Below are positions 861 to 23,387 of a DNA stretch of 64,000 nucleotides, piece by piece. Source of the DNA: Heptranchias perlo (lineage: Eukaryota). A program made the position numbers and the translations under genes. The notes below the pieces were generated by a model that saw nothing but the letters and a program-made list of their open reading frames with translations, searched no databases and was not told the origin of the DNA. The first letter of the stretch is position 1, and every line of letters starts with the position of its first letter. The stretch lies in contig NC_090348.1 in the NCBI RefSeq assembly GCF_035084215.1, forward strand, positions 35,898,001-35,962,000, given 5' to 3'.

Positions 861-3604
861 GGACAGGCTGTGTGTGAAATTTTAATTTAATTTTTAAATC
901 GTTAATCATTATTTTTTTTACAATGTCTAGCGCTGTTATTACGGGAGGAGGGGGAATAGTTTCACTTCTTGTTAATTTCACGGAAATCTCCCCTTCAAGT
1001 TCCTTAAGGCTTAGTTTGACGTAAGAGAAGAAGTGACGGTTTAAGGGAGAATTGATTTATTATTATAATTATTAATCGCAAATTATTTAAATTATAGATC
1101 AGTTTTCTCTACCTTGTTAATTTTATTGTCATTGTGGATGTTGGATCTGTATAATGCATTCAGTTAATATATACATATTCTCTAGAGGAAAAATAAACCC
1201 CTAGGTGTGTTCAATTAGTCTTTTGTGTCAGACTTGCCTTTTGTTCAGATTGTTTTTATGGTATTTAAATTCTCTATTTTCTTTTCAATCGCACTCAATT
1301 CAATTTTTGCTTAAACTTCAGTGTTTTAAAGACTGTCATTTTTGGCCTTAGAATTCTATTTAATAATATTCATATTATCACATCAAAAAACTTCAAACTG
1401 TGAAGTGCAGTGCCTCTTATCCAGCCATGAACATCTGGCAAATAGCAATAAGATGTATGATTAATCAATCTTTCTATGGTGTTGTTTGGTTGAGGGAGGA
1501 ATGTTGGCCAGGAATGTGGGAAAATGCCCTGCTCTTTGAAGAGTGCCCTAGGATCTTTGACATTCATGAGGACAGGTAGAGGGTACTTTGGTTCATTGTA
1601 TCATTGAAGTGATGGCACGTTGTCAGACAATGCAGTTTTGTGCTAAAATGTCAGCCTAGTTTCTAAACTCAAACCTCAGTGTAGGGCCCAATCTTACAAT
1701 GTTCTGATTGTGAAACAAGAACTGAGCCAAGGAGACACACAAATAAATATGTTCTTCATTACTTTGAGGCTTGGCTTCTCTAATTTTCCCCTCGCTGGAC
1801 TTTTCCATGTAAGCCTTTCGACCTCAATCTTCCACATATTACAACTCATCCCGAACTCCACAATCCATTCCCTCATCCACAGAAAGTCACATGGCTGTCG
1901 ACCATTGGCTCACCATGCCCTAGCAAATTGGCTTCAAGATATTCATCCTTGACCAAGATTTTTAAATCCCTTCATGTCACATCTTAGTAATCTTCTCCAG
2001 CCTCCTCTTGTGTGCACCTTTTGCTCTTTGCCCCCACTCCATTATTAGTGGCCACTCTTTCAGTGACTTTGCTCCTGTCTTCTAGAATTCCCTCCCCTTT
2101 ATCCCACCATCAAAAACCTTCTCAGAACTTTTCCATTTGACCATACCTTTATTCTCCCACCTACCTTCTCCATTTTACTTATTTCTCCTACTTGGCATCT
2201 ACTGGTTTCACTCCTCAATGTAAAGTGTTTCCTGTAGGTGAGAGCACCATAGAAATACAAAGTGTAGTTTTTAAGAGTACGCATACAATCCAGCTTTACA
2301 AGACATTTATCACATCTAAGTAACTGTTGTATCTTGTATCACTCCTCTCCATTTTATATTTAGATATGCTAATATTTTCCTGTTCTCTTGATGACTAATG
2401 CTGTTTCATGGTTTCGGGGGTGCAGACCACCCTCCTTGTAGCATTTCTTCACGTCTGAGTTCAGATAATGAGTGTCAACAGGCTAATCAACCAAGAGGGG
2501 CATTGGAGATGAGGCTAAACCTGTCTTCACCTGATAGCCATAGATGCATACTTTCCATTGAGTTGTGGAGGGAGGATTTCCCCCTTTCCCTTAGTGAATA
2601 ATTGTAGATTCTCATTACTGCCTTTGCTGAGATTCCTTCTCATGAGTGCAAATGCAACCCCTGCTGAAAAGAAAGTGTATGTACGTGAATGTCAAGCCTT
2701 CTGACACTCCCTGTCTAAGCTCTCATCTAAAGCTTAGCCACTTGAGCAAGAAACCAGATGGCTGCTAGTGCCTGTGGAACCATGATGTACTTGCCTTCAT
2801 GTAAAATAAGCATCACACTGATTCATTAAAGGGTAGTCTTTATTATGCTCGAATTCTAACAACAAAAATAAGGTCTAATATCAAAAGTAAGAATGTAAAG
2901 CCATATGTGATGGAAATCAAAAAAAGATTCTGTTTCAGCTACTGAGTGAACCTTTACCCCTTATTTATTGTCATAAATGTTTAGAAAGAAAATCTGGGTT
3001 TAGCATGTGGATCATATTTTAATGGGTATGTAAAGCTGATGAGTTTGAATCTTTTTAGTATTAAGTATGACCACCAACTGCAACAATGGTGCTTAAGTTT
3101 ACTTGAACTTACCTGCTTCAACTTGGATGAGTTAGTCTTTTCTGTTTTGAGGTGTGCGATGATTCATCAATTGACAACACAGTTTTCTGTCATTTTGGGT
3201 GAAAATCTGAGGATGTTACTGTCCAGCTAGCCCCACTTGAATAGTGTTGCTGATTGATTATATGGATTTTTGTTAATGGCTTTAATAAAGCCCACAACTC
3301 AAACTGCCTGCTTTCTGAGCTGGAGGAGGTTTGGAGGCGAGAGTAGAGACTGATCTGGAGATATCTTTTAATGTTTATTTTCTGTGACATTTGTGAATTC
3401 TTTGATGCTGACGAACATTACTCTTTTCTGTTTACTTTGTAGATTGAGAAAACTTTGGGGAGAAAACTGAGCCTTTACGGTGTAAAAAGCTCTGGTTCAA
3501 ACTCCATAAAAAGAGCAATAGGTCACTAATTCTGAGTCCATTTGGTTTGCTTTCATTGTGCAAATAGCAAAGTTAAATATCAACTTCAGGAACCATCAGC
3601 AAAC

Positions 3605-3649
3605 ATGGATCCAAATAATTCTTCTAACCAAACAATCATCAAAGAAGAG
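3605..3649 (+). CDS. NUDT5: NUDT5 (ADP-sugar pyrophosphatase) first coding exon, MDPNNSSNQTIIKEE
   Basis: aacATGG Kozak context; ends IIKEE|gtaac in phase 0, like human IISEE; joins next exon in frame. Confidence 0.8.
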
Positions 3650-4384
3650 GTAACAATGTGTTAAAATTGCATTGTACTCTAATCTTATACGTAATTAGTG
3701 GGTTAAAGCTGCATGCAAAAAGAAAGAAAAATTTGTGTGTGGTAGTAAGTTTTGTTCTTTTTCTTTGCAACAGAACTACAATTCCAGTCTTCTCAGTTAA
3801 CATGTAAGTCCTTGCACAATTCAACAAAGTTGACACCATACCTATCTGAGATTTTATTTGTTGAGAAACCTTGGAGATGGGGCCAGGCCCCGTAGTGCAG
3901 GACACCATAAGGATGGCAGAATAAGTCAAGAAATAGTGACTAGGCGATGGTCTGCTGGGGTTTTTTAAAATATGTAGATTCTATGAAAATGAAGACTGAA
4001 GGAGATAAGGCCGTAAAGAATGAGTTAGGGCACTTTTTTGCATTGACACTTCTTTACTTTAGATAGTGGGAAAACAGCATCTGTGCTCTGGTTGCCTGGT
4101 TTTATATCGTTACAACTGGCTCCTTTATTCCAAAAGCAAAATTGTAGACCCACAAAATTGTGAGTCTACAATTCAGCCATCAGGATAAGGGAGCTATGTT
4201 TTGTAATATTAAAGCAGGGAGCCAACTTGTGATGCCACTCTCCTGCAATCCAAATTAAACAAGCACCAATGTAAAAGTACCTTTTAAAGTTCTGATAACT
4301 TGATGTGATTGGCAGTTAATTGAGGAACTTAATTTTTTTCTTTCTCTTGACAGAGTTGTCGTTTTGTGCACCCTTGGGTGAAAG

Positions 4385-19668: not shown

Positions 19669-19827
<159 letters not shown>

Positions 19828-20248
19828 TTAGTGTTACAAAAGGCTTCTTGCAGGCAGCCAACAGCAGACTGCAGACTAGGCAGAGTCGGTTTCCTCTGGT
19901 ATCTCCTTTGCTGAAGGCAGGACTTGCTGTTCTCTGCCACCCTTCCGAACTTCTTTCACACCACCCTCAGCTTAGAGGGCTTGTCATTCTCAGACCTTCC
20001 CTAATACTGATTTCACGATGGCACTTCGGAGACATTCACATCATCTCGCCTGGTGGAAGAAACTTCTCAGCACCTTTCTGATGGTGTACAGCATTAGTAT
20101 CTCAGAGTACCAAGATATTTTGGTACTGCCTCAAAGTCTGAAATTTAAAACTACAACACCACATTACATTTTCTAAAAATCACTGTTAAAGAGCTTGATA
20201 CTACTGTAGCAGCCAGTAAATAAAACTCTGTTGAAGCGCCTGCCTGCG

Positions 20249-20365
20249 ATGGGGGTGAAGGTGAGTACCTTCGGCATAGTCTTCGACAGCGAAGGGGTGA
20301 GCAGCTACTCGAGCGGCGACGCGGTGTCGGGGCAAGTGCTGCTGGAGGTGAGCAACGAGCGGAGG
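20249..20365 (+). pseudogene. Truncated 5' fragment of an alpha-arrestin (ARRDC3/ARRDC4-like) gene
   Basis: MGVKVSTFGIVFDSEGVSSYSSGDAVSGQVLLEVSNERR resembles the arrestin-N start (ARRDC3 YSSGDTVSGRVNLEV; ARRDC4 YSSGETVAGHVLLE); similarity ends after 39 codons. Confidence 0.75.
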
Positions 20366-20739
20366 TCGGCAGCGAAGGGTTGCACCCGCATCAATTGGAG
20401 CGGCAACCACACTAATGGAACTACAGTTCACTTGAATAATGCCAAACAGGCTGCATTCGCACACTGGAGCATTTCCAACCAGCACAGTCTCTCCTCGGCA
20501 ACAAGCCGCAGCAGTTCACACCAGGTCCAGGTGTCCAGAAAGGCGACGTGCAGCAGTTTTCCACTTCCCACCCGTGAAAAGCCTGAGCTGCCTAACAGTC
20601 TCTCTCTCTCTCACCCCCAACTCACCTGCCCCCACAGTAACACGCCCCGAAGGGAGCCCGGGGAGCGTGAGCACGGGTAAACCAGGAGCCGTACAAGAGG
20701 ACCTCTGCTCTACACAACATATGGAATGGGGACCACACA

Positions 20740-22741
20740 CTGAATTGGCAGCTCCACCAAAACTCGAGTGACAGGAAACAAGCCTATAGGCAACTGAAGG
20801 CAGAGATGCAACAAAGAACCCATGACCTAAACAGATGGTGGGTGGAAAGAGCGCAGGAGACTCAGCAACTCGCCGACAACCACGGTGTGCGCGGCTTCTT
20901 CAGCGCAATTAAAACCATCTATGGTCCGAGTACCCAGGGACCTACCCCACTCAGAGCCAAAAATGGAGAGGCGCTCATCAAAGACAGAGAGGCAGTCAAC
21001 GCCCGCTGGAAAGAGCACTTCGAGGACCTCCTCAACCAAGACACAGTCCTCGACGCAAGTGCCCTTGACACCATCCCACAACACGCTACCCGCCACCATC
21101 TCAGCACAACCCCAGCCTACTGTTCGGTCAAAAAAGCCATTCGACAGCTGAAAAACAAAGCCCTTGGCACAGATGGAATCCCCGCTGAAGTACTAAAATA
21201 CAGCGGAGAGGCACTCGACACGAATACACGACCTTATCACCCTTGTCTGGAAGGAAGAGAGCATGCCGGGAGATCTCAGACGCTGTAATTGTGACCATCT
21301 TCAAGAAAGGAGATGGGTCCGACTGCGGGAATTAGAGGGATTTACCTACTGTCCACCACGAGAAAGGTCATCGCGAGAATCCTCCTCATGCCTCCTTCTG
21401 GTGGCCAAAGAGCTCCTCCCTGAGTCTCAATGTGGCTTCCGCCAGTCAAGAGGCACAATGGACGTGATCTTTGGCGCGCGACAAGTCCAGGAAAAGTGCA
21501 GGAAGCAGCATCAACCTCCATACATGGCCGCCTTGGATCTCGCAAAGGCCTTCGACTCTGTCAACCGTGAGGGATTGTGGAGCATCCTCAAATTCGGCTG
21601 CCCGCAGAAATTCGTCACCATTCTCTGCCTGCTCCACAATGACATTCAAGCAGTGATCATCACCGATGGATCCACCACAGACCCAATACAAGTGCAAACT
21701 GGGGCCAAGCAGGGCTGCGGCATCACACCAACTCTCTTCTCCACCTTCCTCGCTGCAACACTCCAACCCCATCACCATCACCATAAAGCTCCCTGCCGGA
21801 GTGGAGCTAACCTACAGGACAAGCGGGAAACTGTTCAACCTTCGATGCCTCCAGGCAAGAACCAAGACCACCCCAACTTCTGTCATCGAGCTGCAATATG
21901 CAGACGACACCTGCATGTGCGCACACTCGGAGGCTGAGCTACAAACCATCGTCAACGCATTCACCGAGGCGTATGAGAGAATGGGCCTCAGGCTAAATAT
22001 CCGGAAAACAAAGGTCCTCTACCAGCCCGCTCCTGCTACACAATACTGTCCCCGACAATCAAGATCCATGGTGCGCCTCTGGACAGCGTGGATCATTTCC
22101 CATACCTCGGGAGCCTCCTCTTGGCGCAAGCAGACATTGACGATGAAATTCAACATCGACTCCAATGCGCCAGTGTAGCCTTCGGACACCTGAGGAACAG
22201 AGTGTTCAAAAACCAAGACCTCAAATCCAGCACCAAGCTCATGGTCTACAGAGCAGCCGTGGTCCCCGCCCTCCTGTACGCATCAGAAACATGGGCAATG
22301 TACAGCAGACACCTAAAATCCCTGGAGAGATATCACCAACATTGCCTCCGCAAAATCCTGCAAATCTATTGGCAGGATAGGTGTACCCAACGTGAGTGTT
22401 CTCTCCCAAGCTAACATCCCCAGTATCGAGGCACCGGTCATGCTCAACCAGCTGCAATGGGCGGGCCACATTGTCCGCATGCCCGACTCAAGATTCCCTA
22501 AACAAGTGCTCTACTCCGAGCTCCGCAATGGCAGGCGATCACTAGGAGGGCAAAGGAAACGCTATAAAGCGGAAAGATCGTGCAGAATCCAGAGCGTCTC
22601 ACCCACCCGCCTTATTAAACGCTACCTGCCCCACCCGTGGCAGAGACTGCAGCTCCAGGATTGGACTATTCAACCTCTGCAGAACCCACCCTCCTGGAGT
22701 GGAAGCAAGTCATCCTTGATCCTGAGGGACTGCCAAAGAAG
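20740..22741 (+). mobile_element. 5'-truncated RTE-clade LINE with frameshifted RT
   Basis: Peptides RWKEHFEDLLN, LPESQCGFR, DLAKAFDSV, QYADD, FPYLGS, WAGHIVRM..R.PKQVLYSEL; short 3' UTR ending in AAGAAG. Confidence 0.92.
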
Positions 22742-23195
22742 ACTGTAGCACTAATCCATTAGACTGCGACCAGTACACTTAAAGGCTAGTGGAAGCACAA
22801 GTGAATACTCCTAAAAAGGACACTCAACATGGGATCTTTTAAATACTCTTCACAAATAGTCTACAGAATAGTAACGAAGTACAATTTTAGTTGATAATTT
22901 CATTATGGATGTATACATTTTCAATTTGGGAGTCCTTCGACCCATTTGATTTCCTCCTTACAGAATAGCATTCCTCAGTCTTCCCATTATAAATTTTTAA
23001 TTTCCATTTGAACAGGCAAACAGGACCTCTATTTAACATCTCATGCAAAAGATGACATTTCTGATAATGCAGCACTACCTCAACATTGTATTAGAGCATT
23101 AGCCTAGATTGTGTGTTCAAGTCCTGCTGTGGGCTCAAACCCATAACCTGACCCCGAGTGCCACGAACAAAGCAAAGTTGACAATCACTACTTAC

Positions 23196-23387
23196 ATCCT
23201 TAGCAGAAGAACCAGAAACATCAATCCAAGTCTTGGAGAAGAAAGCACATGATCCCAGCATAAAGATGATGTAAACAGTGACATGGATGGGATCATCAAA
23301 CACAGCACTGATAGATTCCGGAGGGGAAAGGTAATAGCAGAGCCCACCGACTGGGTATGACCGAGCTGGGCCACCTCCACTCACATC
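23196..23387 (-). CDS. SEC61A2: SEC61A2 exon 10, [15 protein letters not shown]...SGSSAKD
   Basis: tag|...|gtaagt, 192 nt. Confidence 0.97.

What the first reader, a model, noticed from the sequence alone, without database searches (positions are those of the whole stretch)
20203..22750. Chimeric retro-insertion: ARRDC gene 5' end fused to an RTE LINE within one TSD
Seen: the 9-bp direct repeat actgtagca (20203-20211, 22742-22750) brackets about 37 nt of leader, 39 stop-free codons of an alpha-arrestin N-terminus (20249-20365), about 375 bp of unassigned DNA and a 5'-truncated RTE ending in AAGAAG. It lies antisense in SEC61A2 intron 10. Established: LINE RT can switch templates to cellular RNAs, mostly described for L1. 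Inference: RTE-mediated capture of a host transcript 5' end, either by template switching or from a read-through transcript of an RTE at the ARRDC locus. The + ORF continues from 20249 to 20680, so a chimeric peptide is formally possible.
Basis: partly seen in the sequence, partly recalled or inferred. Interest (0 to 1): 0.7.

Follow-up and report, generated by a model that had tools for sequence, protein, structure and literature searches.

The report
Shark LINE with stolen, edited leader
This is one partly flipped copy of a shark jumping gene whose front end is stitched from pieces of host genes, including a backwards piece of the ARRDC4 gene found in 20 copies, and four of those copies carry one-strand A-to-G changes concentrated in that piece, likely RNA editing that happened when the element's RNA paired with the host's own message and was then written back into the genome.

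Summary
The TSD, arrestin piece, RTE-type body and antisense position in SEC61A2 intron 10 are real. The one-off template-switch reading is wrong. The piece is ARRDC4 exon 1 and occurs in 20 element copies; in 14 it lies antisense in the 5' leader of a ~4.1-kb LINE, three times inside the copy's own TSD. That leader also holds MGAT2 upstream sequence and a CpG/AT-array piece from upstream of an MRPL17-like gene. The window copy is 5'-inverted (likely twin priming), which turns the ARRDC4 piece to the sense side; such inversions occur in 3 of 40 copies picked by their 3' end. The 143-codon frame is incidental. Four of the 20 copies show A-to-G excess in the ARRDC4-antisense part (25/39, 11/20, 5/23, 5/29 versus about 1.3% elsewhere), with 5'-G depletion and no self-duplex: likely ADAR editing of a duplex with host ARRDC4 mRNA, fixed by retrotransposition. 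Promoter function, capture route and pairing partner are inferred. Closest known: SVA_F1/pt_SVA_D6, L1 5'UTR replacement, L1 twin priming. This scan noted ADAR-edited shark retrocopies before in other genomes (unreviewed).

The parts
20203..20211 (+). Left target-site duplication; six of its letters (TGTAGC) also stand in the element's antisense strand at the point where the inverted part begins
20212..20408 (+). ARRDC4 exon 1 piece (part of the 5' UTR plus about 53 codons, 15-nt deletion); antisense in uninverted family members, sense here through inversion
   Evidence: 84% to parent L007 = G000:C37:19075985-19076197
20249..20680 (+). Incidental open frame of 143 codons starting at the ARRDC4 ATG
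   Evidence: not conserved among copies
20428..20612 (-). Piece of the MGAT2 CpG island, 180-350 nt upstream of the MGAT2 ATG; sense to MGAT2 on the element's own strand
   Evidence: 84% to L012 = G000:C10:55395978-55396147; MGAT2 E 2e-162
20613..20671 (-). 5'-most family leader (CT-rich stretch and start of a GC-rich minisatellite), shared with copies L002 and L005
20672..20739 (.). 68-nt filler at the inversion junction, origin unknown
   Evidence: only self-matches in the genome and among held loci
20740..22742 (+). Sense body of the LINE (family positions 1966-4133): decayed RT, 155-nt deletion at 22567/22568, AAG-repeat tail
   Evidence: 3.4% non-CpG divergence from the family majority
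22742..22750 (+). Right target-site duplication
19719..19795 (-). Host SEC61A2-like exon 11 (approximate bounds)
23194..23387 (-). Host SEC61A2-like exon 10 (approximate bounds)

Best explanation
The insert is a dead, 5'-inverted copy of an RTE-type LINE family whose 5' leader is a mosaic of host-gene 5' ends with ARRDC4 exon 1 in antisense, likely flipped here by twin priming, and the family's RNA likely paired with host ARRDC4 mRNA and was edited by ADAR before being copied back into DNA. Steps: (1, shown) the leader reads, on the element's strand, minisatellite - MGAT2 upstream piece (sense) - ARRDC4 exon 1 (antisense, 228 nt, 95% to the parent) - CpG piece and AT-array from upstream of an MRPL17-like gene - GC repeats - endonuclease/RT frame. 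(2, inferred) the pieces were added one after another at the 5' end during insertion, the antisense ones most likely by the same second-strand priming that inverts copies today; each new chimera became a source element, probably transcribed from the captured CpG-island pieces. (3, shown) at least 20 copies with the ARRDC4 piece spread in a star-like burst, about 3% non-CpG divergence. (4, structure shown, chemistry inferred) at this site the first nick primed at the AAG tail and copied to position 1966, the second primed inside the ARRDC4 piece and copied the leader backwards, and the two cDNAs were joined through 68 extra bases. (5, pattern shown, enzyme and partner inferred) the antisense piece formed a long duplex with ARRDC4 mRNA in germ cells or early embryos, ADAR deaminated it, and four edited RNAs were retrotransposed independently.
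For: 22 genome matches to 20212-20700: 2 host parents and 20 element copies. Shared upstream flank is the reverse strand of the LINE's 5' end. TSDs enclose antisense ARRDC4 plus tail in L026 (10 bp), L031 (10 bp), L033 (12 bp). Parents: ARRDC4, MGAT2, C45 CpG island and AT array near Ribosomal_L17 exons; all three are CpG islands, o/e 0.75-1.03. Inversions: 6 of the 20 ARRDC4 copies, 7 of 24 other 5'-reaching loci, 3 of 40 copies picked by their 3' end, those three each with an 11-bp TSD; L058/L138 inverts at 2696/2703 with a 12-bp TSD. The MRPL17-side pieces are not colinear with their parent on either strand, which itself needs an inversion. A-to-G in the ARRDC4 part versus the rest of the same copy: L031 25/39 vs 9/460, L080 11/20 vs 14/649, L032 5/23 vs 12/968, L030 5/29 vs 11/898 (p 6e-25, 2e-12, 2e-5, 7e-5); pooled over 20 copies A>G 52/620 against T>C 10/608. 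In 42 copies scanned, 100-nt windows with 5 or more A>G occur only in that part, in 3 copies. Edited fraction by 5' neighbour: T 7/10, A 9/20, C 24/54, G 6/26, G depleted p 0.02 one-sided, the ADAR pattern of PMC4365171 (passages). L030, L031 and L032 share 1-3 body mutations per pair (0.6-1.9 per kb, median of 809 pairs 0.86) yet share edited sites. No long inverted repeat inside three copies; predicted duplex with the parent exon -490 kcal/mol versus -98 self-fold. ARRDC4 transcript-like contigs span the whole captured piece in 4 of 4 probable RNA runs of one sample.
Against: 16 of 20 copies, the window copy among them (1/31), show no editing. 3'-G enrichment is not significant (17/35 vs 29/75, p 0.22), and the 5'-G test on L031 alone is not either (p 0.24). 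L031 and L080 each have 2/37 A>G in the AT-rich part beyond the ARRDC4 boundary. No TSD was found for inverted copies L028, L056, L075, L076, and none could be tested for L036, L080. The window's 5' microhomology is offset by 3 bases and its deleted middle (positions 347-1965) is long. L080 was not tested for kinship with the other edited copies in the printed pairs. Clade was not tested by a tree with named references. Counts are lower bounds: 40 of 167 and 40 of 315 candidates were scored. Promoter activity has no direct support.
Confidence: 0.8

Rival explanations
1. One-off template switch at this site: the LINE's RT jumped from its own RNA to ARRDC4 mRNA.
For: One TSD encloses both parts; RTE-type template switching to U6 is described (PMC4476161, passages); the 68-nt filler is unique.
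Against: The window shares the ARRDC4|MGAT2 junction with five other copies and shares differences from the parent with the family; in 14 of 20 copies the piece is antisense in the leader.
Confidence: 0.03
2. Same family anatomy, but the leader grew by ordinary 5' transduction: a source element sat inside the ARRDC4 5' UTR in antisense (and later in the MGAT2 island), was read from the island's own promoter activity, and that allele has since been lost.
For: All three main pieces come from CpG islands; the 5' ends of uninverted copies scatter through the ARRDC4 part (10 of 14 between positions 150 and 251), as dispersed start sites would give; no intron junction proves an mRNA template.
Against: No element at ARRDC4, MGAT2 or the C45 locus in the stretches read; the C45 pieces are not colinear with the parent; a 48-nt piece of an AG/GT-bounded exon-like stretch on C30 heads two copies.
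Confidence: 0.3
3. The A-to-G clusters are ADAR marks but the partner was not ARRDC4 mRNA: it was an opposite-strand transcript of an inverted copy, or a cis hairpin in the locus of a lost source element.
For: Inverted copies with the piece in the other orientation exist (6 of 20); slight A>G excess in the AT-rich part of two copies; cis duplexes are the usual ADAR substrate (PMC4365171, passages).
Against: Editing drops at the ARRDC4 boundary in all four copies although most inverted copies include the AT-rich part too; the four copies lie on four contigs and three tested pairs are not sisters.
Confidence: 0.15
4. The A-to-G clusters are not editing: RT misincorporation, biased gene conversion or alignment error.
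For: No enzyme was tested.
Against: One strand, one substitution type, one segment, four copies; parent and majority both have A at these sites, which fixes the direction.
Confidence: 0.05
5. The insert makes a functional chimeric arrestin peptide.
For: 143 open codons from the native ATG.
Against: Frame length varies from 14 to 183 codons among 17 copies; 6 non-synonymous to 1 synonymous change; no promoter known on that strand.
Confidence: 0.02

Closest known systems
SVA_F1 (MAST2 exon 1) and chimpanzee pt_SVA_D6 (STK40 exon 1); PMC6139936, passages read
   Same: A retroposon subfamily amplifies after taking a GC-rich first exon of a host gene at its 5' end; further 5' pieces are added; the exon can act as promoter (shown for SVA_F1 per that paper).
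   Different: SVAs are non-autonomous and took the exon in sense by splicing; here an autonomous LINE carries it in antisense, ends inside the exon, and stacks pieces of at least three genes.
5'UTR replacement in mammalian L1; PMC3600994, passages read
   Same: A LINE lineage acquires non-homologous 5' leaders with tandem repeats.
   Different: That paper describes the new leaders as coming from unknown sources or older L1 families; here the donors are identifiable single-copy host loci at up to 95-97% identity.
Twin priming / 5' inversion of L1; PMC2912911 and PMC4245944, passages read
   Same: Inverted 5' part, sense 3' part, one TSD, short microhomology at the 5' junction.
   Different: PMC4245944 saw inversions almost only with human L1 in human cells (one Nimb-2 insert excepted); here they are common in an RTE-type LINE of a shark (3 of 40).
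Inverted snRNA/L1 chimeras made by twin priming on a second RNA, and U6/RTE template-switch chimeras; PMC4476161, section 6 and passages read
   Same: A host RNA ends up antisense at the 5' end of a LINE inside one TSD.
   Different: Those are single dead-end inserts of snRNA with L1, and that paper says non-L1 clades form chimeras only by template switching; here mRNA-gene pieces became a heritable leader.
ADAR hyper-editing of long dsRNA; PMC4365171 and PMC5224506, passages read
   Same: Dense one-strand A-to-G change with G depleted 5' of the site.
   Different: Seen here in genomic DNA copies, and bounded by complementarity to a host mRNA; PMC5224506 found no editing in more than 2.5 kb of L1 RNA.

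Membership tests
RTE-clade LINE | Single ORF of about 1,000-1,100 aa with AP endonuclease then RT (PMC1291365, passages) | tested here: met
   Majority line gives 530 + 560 aa in one frame with one stop; Exo_endo_phos and RVT_1 in real copies; best relatives are mostly 1,050-1,100-aa EN+RT proteins at 40-54%
RTE-clade LINE | Short 3' UTR ending in short A-rich tandem repeats | tested here: met
   AAG-repeat tails in most copies
RTE-clade LINE | TSD peak at 10-12 bp (PMC4245944, passage) | tested here: met
   Clear TSDs of 8-14 bp, many 9-12; none found in a sizeable share of copies
RTE-clade LINE | Groups with named RTE elements in an RT tree | not tested
   No hit carried an RTE name; no named references were on hand
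Twin-primed 5'-inverted insertion | Inverted 5' segment of the same element plus sense 3' segment within one TSD | tested here: met
   Window: -q43-346, +q1966-4133, 9-bp TSD
Twin-primed 5'-inverted insertion | Microhomology between target end and element at the 5' junction | tested here: inconclusive
   6 shared letters with a 3-base offset in the window; 2-4 letters in L035, L037, L058, L131; extra bases in L079, L120; no chance model run
Twin-primed 5'-inverted insertion | Microhomology at the inversion junction | tested here: not met
   68 unique bases instead
De novo template-switch chimera (U6/L1 type) | Host RNA in sense, joined once, junction unique to the insert | tested here: not met
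   Piece is antisense in the family and its junctions recur
SVA_F1-type exon capture | Exon acquired in sense by splicing, ending at the exon's 3' end | tested here: not met
   Piece ends at +175, before the donor at +262, and is antisense
SVA_F1-type exon capture | Captured exon drives transcription | not testable with these tools
   Needs reporter or CAGE data
ADAR hyper-edited RNA | Clustered, one-strand A-to-G change | tested here: met
ADAR hyper-edited RNA | G depleted 5' of edited sites | tested here: met
   6/26 vs 40/84, p 0.02 one-sided, four copies pooled
ADAR hyper-edited RNA | G enriched 3' of edited sites | tested here: inconclusive
   17/35 vs 29/75, p 0.22
ADAR hyper-edited RNA | A long double-stranded partner covering the edited stretch | tested here: inconclusive
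   No self-duplex; ARRDC4 exon 1 is 95% complementary over exactly that stretch and appears transcribed; pairing in cells not shown

The most novel reading that the evidence does not exclude
An autonomous LINE built its promoter and leader by repeatedly capturing host CpG-island 5' ends through twin priming, and one capture turned every full-length element RNA into a natural antisense RNA of ARRDC4, so that host mRNA and ADAR marked (and probably restrained) the element in trans in the germ line, leaving edited copies in the genome as a heritable record of an intermolecular RNA duplex.
Probability: 0.45. Interest if true: 0.85.

Novelty: new variant of a known kind. Interest (0 to 1): 0.7.

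Why it matters
Where LINEs get new 5' leaders is an old question; here the donors are still in the genome and can be tested piece by piece for promoter activity. The edited copies would show that ADAR acts on a duplex between two different RNAs in the germ line and that the marks can be inherited through retrotransposition, with the segment boundary as a built-in control. The family also extends frequent 5' inversion beyond L1. For annotation, it explains some 20 false ARRDC4 exon-1 fragments in this genome.

Tried and rejected
Repeat finder did not list the TSD among its 20 largest families. Origin of the 68-nt filler: DNA search and a 25-nt pattern with 2 mismatches found only the window. 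Parent of the GC repeats: of 39 matches, the two unexplained ones fetched were further inverted copies; no parent found. The 5' minisatellite gave only low-complexity matches and a local array in L021. The apparent 10-bp TSD of L022 was dropped: the same letters belong to a C30 piece shared with L024. A second, alternative leader was sought among 31 uninverted copies; only the known variants and one shared flank (L055/L066, different break points) appeared; 3 of the 40 matches were not fetched. A search with the edited copy found no new locus beyond one search's set. No RNA holder is on record; no contig of the four probable RNA runs bridged a mosaic junction or covered the MGAT2 piece, which is no evidence either way. 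Two runs of other organisms hold the LINE body but gave no cover over 20305-20667; no conclusion drawn. No empty allele was seen in the joints shown (370 rows hidden). Orthologous sites could not be checked: no relatives are held. Gene identity of the C30 exon-like stretch: no Pfam hit in 5 frames tried. Kojima and Okada 2009 is not held; only its title was seen. No supplements were opened; copy tables in supplements of PMC6139936 and PMC4476161 could bear on the comparison. Literature searches that found no report of this family, of a host-derived RTE leader, or of ADAR-edited LINE copies bounded by a host mRNA: (open-access library only).

Full report
Observation. The 9-bp repeat stands at 20203-20211 and 22742-22750 and only there in the window. 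Between the copies lie a GC-rich 5' block and a decayed RT body ending in AAG repeats. SEC61A-type exons lie on the minus strand on both sides (names and numbers from recalled motifs), and a contig of a probable RNA run joins them across the insert. DNA contigs of one run bridge the left end, the inner junction and the right end without differences; that run may be the assembly's own sample.

The arrestin piece is a family feature. Searching the genome with 20212-20700 gave 22 matches. One is the parent exon on C37, with a GT donor, Arrestin_N E 4.9e-9, and 100% identity to an ARRDC4-like protein named for Heptranchias perlo. One is the CpG island 180-350 nt upstream of MGAT2. The other 20, the window included, are element copies. 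Their shared flank is not the parent's but the reverse strand of the LINE's 5' end. In 14 of 20 the ARRDC4 piece is antisense at the front of an uninverted element; L026, L027, L030, L032 and L033 are near full length, and L026, L031 and L033 have 10-12-bp TSDs around the whole. A majority line of 13 copies is 4,133 nt with one long frame from about position 892; real copies carry endonuclease and RT domains. Architecture, tail and TSD length fit the RTE clade as described in PMC1291365 and PMC4245944 (passages); no tree with named references was built.

The leader is a mosaic. On the element's strand: minisatellite; MGAT2 piece in sense (97% over 69 nt); ARRDC4 exon 1 in antisense (positions 134-360, 94.7%); a 44-nt CpG piece and an AT-rich unit from C45, about 1.8 kb upstream of an exon with a Ribosomal_L17 match; GC repeats of unknown origin. 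The three donors are CpG islands. The ARRDC4 and C45 alignments overlap by 2 nt at their junction. The C45 pieces are in an order that neither strand of the parent gives. Variants exist: L022 and L024 begin with 48 nt of an AG/GT-bounded stretch on C30; L026 and L034 share another short head. Copies differ from the majority by 2.5-4.3% at non-CpG sites and share few mutations, a star-like burst.

This copy is inverted. It reads TSD, leader positions 346 back to the 5' end, 68 unique bases, positions 1966-4133, TSD. Six TSD letters recur in the element at the start of the inverted part, offset by three bases. Inversion is common: 6 of the 20 ARRDC4 copies, 7 of 24 other loci that reach the 5' region, and 3 of 40 copies picked by a 3' probe, each with an 11-bp TSD (L106 could not be read to its 5' end; 40 of 315 candidates scored). 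TSDs were found for the window, L035, L037, L058/L138, L079, L120 and L131, doubtful for L077 and L078, absent for L028, L056, L075 and L076. This is the twin-priming layout (PMC2912911, passages), which PMC4245944 saw almost only with L1 in human cells (passages). PMC4476161 shows that second-strand priming on another RNA leaves it antisense at a LINE's 5' end (section 6); I infer the same route, or sense capture followed by inversion, for the antisense pieces. Insertion into the donor islands with read-through remains a real rival.

The open frame is incidental: 14-183 codons among 17 copies, 6 non-synonymous to 1 synonymous change in the window's 39 codons.

Editing fossils. Four of the 20 copies have A-to-G excess on the element's strand within the ARRDC4 part: L031 25/39, L080 11/20, L032 5/23, L030 5/29, against 9/460, 14/649, 12/968 and 11/898 in the rest of the same copies. 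T-to-C is not raised. Among 42 copies, windows of 100 nt with 5 or more A-to-G occur only there (3 copies); windows with 4 occur once there, once in the ORF of L027, and once as T-to-C in L042. G is depleted 5' of changed sites (p 0.02); 3' G is not significantly enriched. The parent has A at these sites. The three tested pairs among L030, L031 and L032 are not sisters, yet sites 325-340 recur. Three copies show no long inverted repeat, while the parent exon gives a predicted duplex of -490 kcal/mol, and ARRDC4 transcript-like contigs span the piece and run on at both ends in 4 of 4 probable RNA runs of one sample. Against: 16 copies are unedited, and two edited copies have 2/37 changes in the AT-rich part. 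ADAR and the partner are inferred. PMC5224506 reports no editing in L1 RNA (passages).

Comparison and verdict. The nearest known cases are SVA_F1 and pt_SVA_D6 (PMC6139936, passages), L1 leader replacement from partly unknown sources (PMC3600994, passages) and L1 twin priming. It fails the tests for a de novo template-switch chimera and for splice capture. Ten searches of the open library found no report of this combination. Unreviewed notes of this scan describe ADAR-like edited retrocopies in other shark genomes and led me to three papers; a look-up by sequence found nothing. Each part has a precedent; their union in an autonomous LINE with traceable donors and segment-bounded editing is a new variant, and it is directly testable. 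Interest 0.7.

Noticed in passing
L031 (G000:C11:16.493 Mb), L080 (C14:537 kb), L032, L030: A-to-G hyper-mutation concentrated in the ARRDC4-antisense part; became a main result.
   Followed up: yes
L080, about 400 nt between the inverted and sense parts: A GC-rich minisatellite at the inversion junction that resembles an expanded, edited stretch of the ARRDC4 piece.
   Followed up: no
L021/L083, G000:C22:42413500-42417400: The leader's 5' minisatellite has grown into an array of more than 3.5 kb in one copy.
   Followed up: partly
L040:4159-5249 (G000:C45:11.85 Mb): AT-rich array of about 85-nt units in both orientations between a CpG island and an MRPL17-like coding exon; could fold back if transcribed.
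   Followed up: partly
Family positions 150-251: 10 of 14 uninverted copies with the ARRDC4 piece end inside it, three at position 150: dispersed start sites or RT stalling on the duplex.
   Followed up: partly
L021:3126-3272 and 3173-3175: Contigs of probable RNA runs join family position about 3126 to another sequence and 3272 to the element's 3' tip, and one has 61 letters inserted: a likely short non-autonomous derivative.
   Followed up: no
L042:3703-4161: A 27-nt unit tandemly repeated about 17 times inside the ORF of one copy.
   Followed up: no
window 20740-22742 in runs X10, X11: The same LINE body is abundant in two other organisms at 85% identity or more; vertical or horizontal spread not examined.
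   Followed up: no
window 19768-20308: Contigs of three probable RNA runs cross the left junction, most simply unspliced SEC61A2 transcript, which would carry the ARRDC4 piece in antisense.
   Followed up: partly
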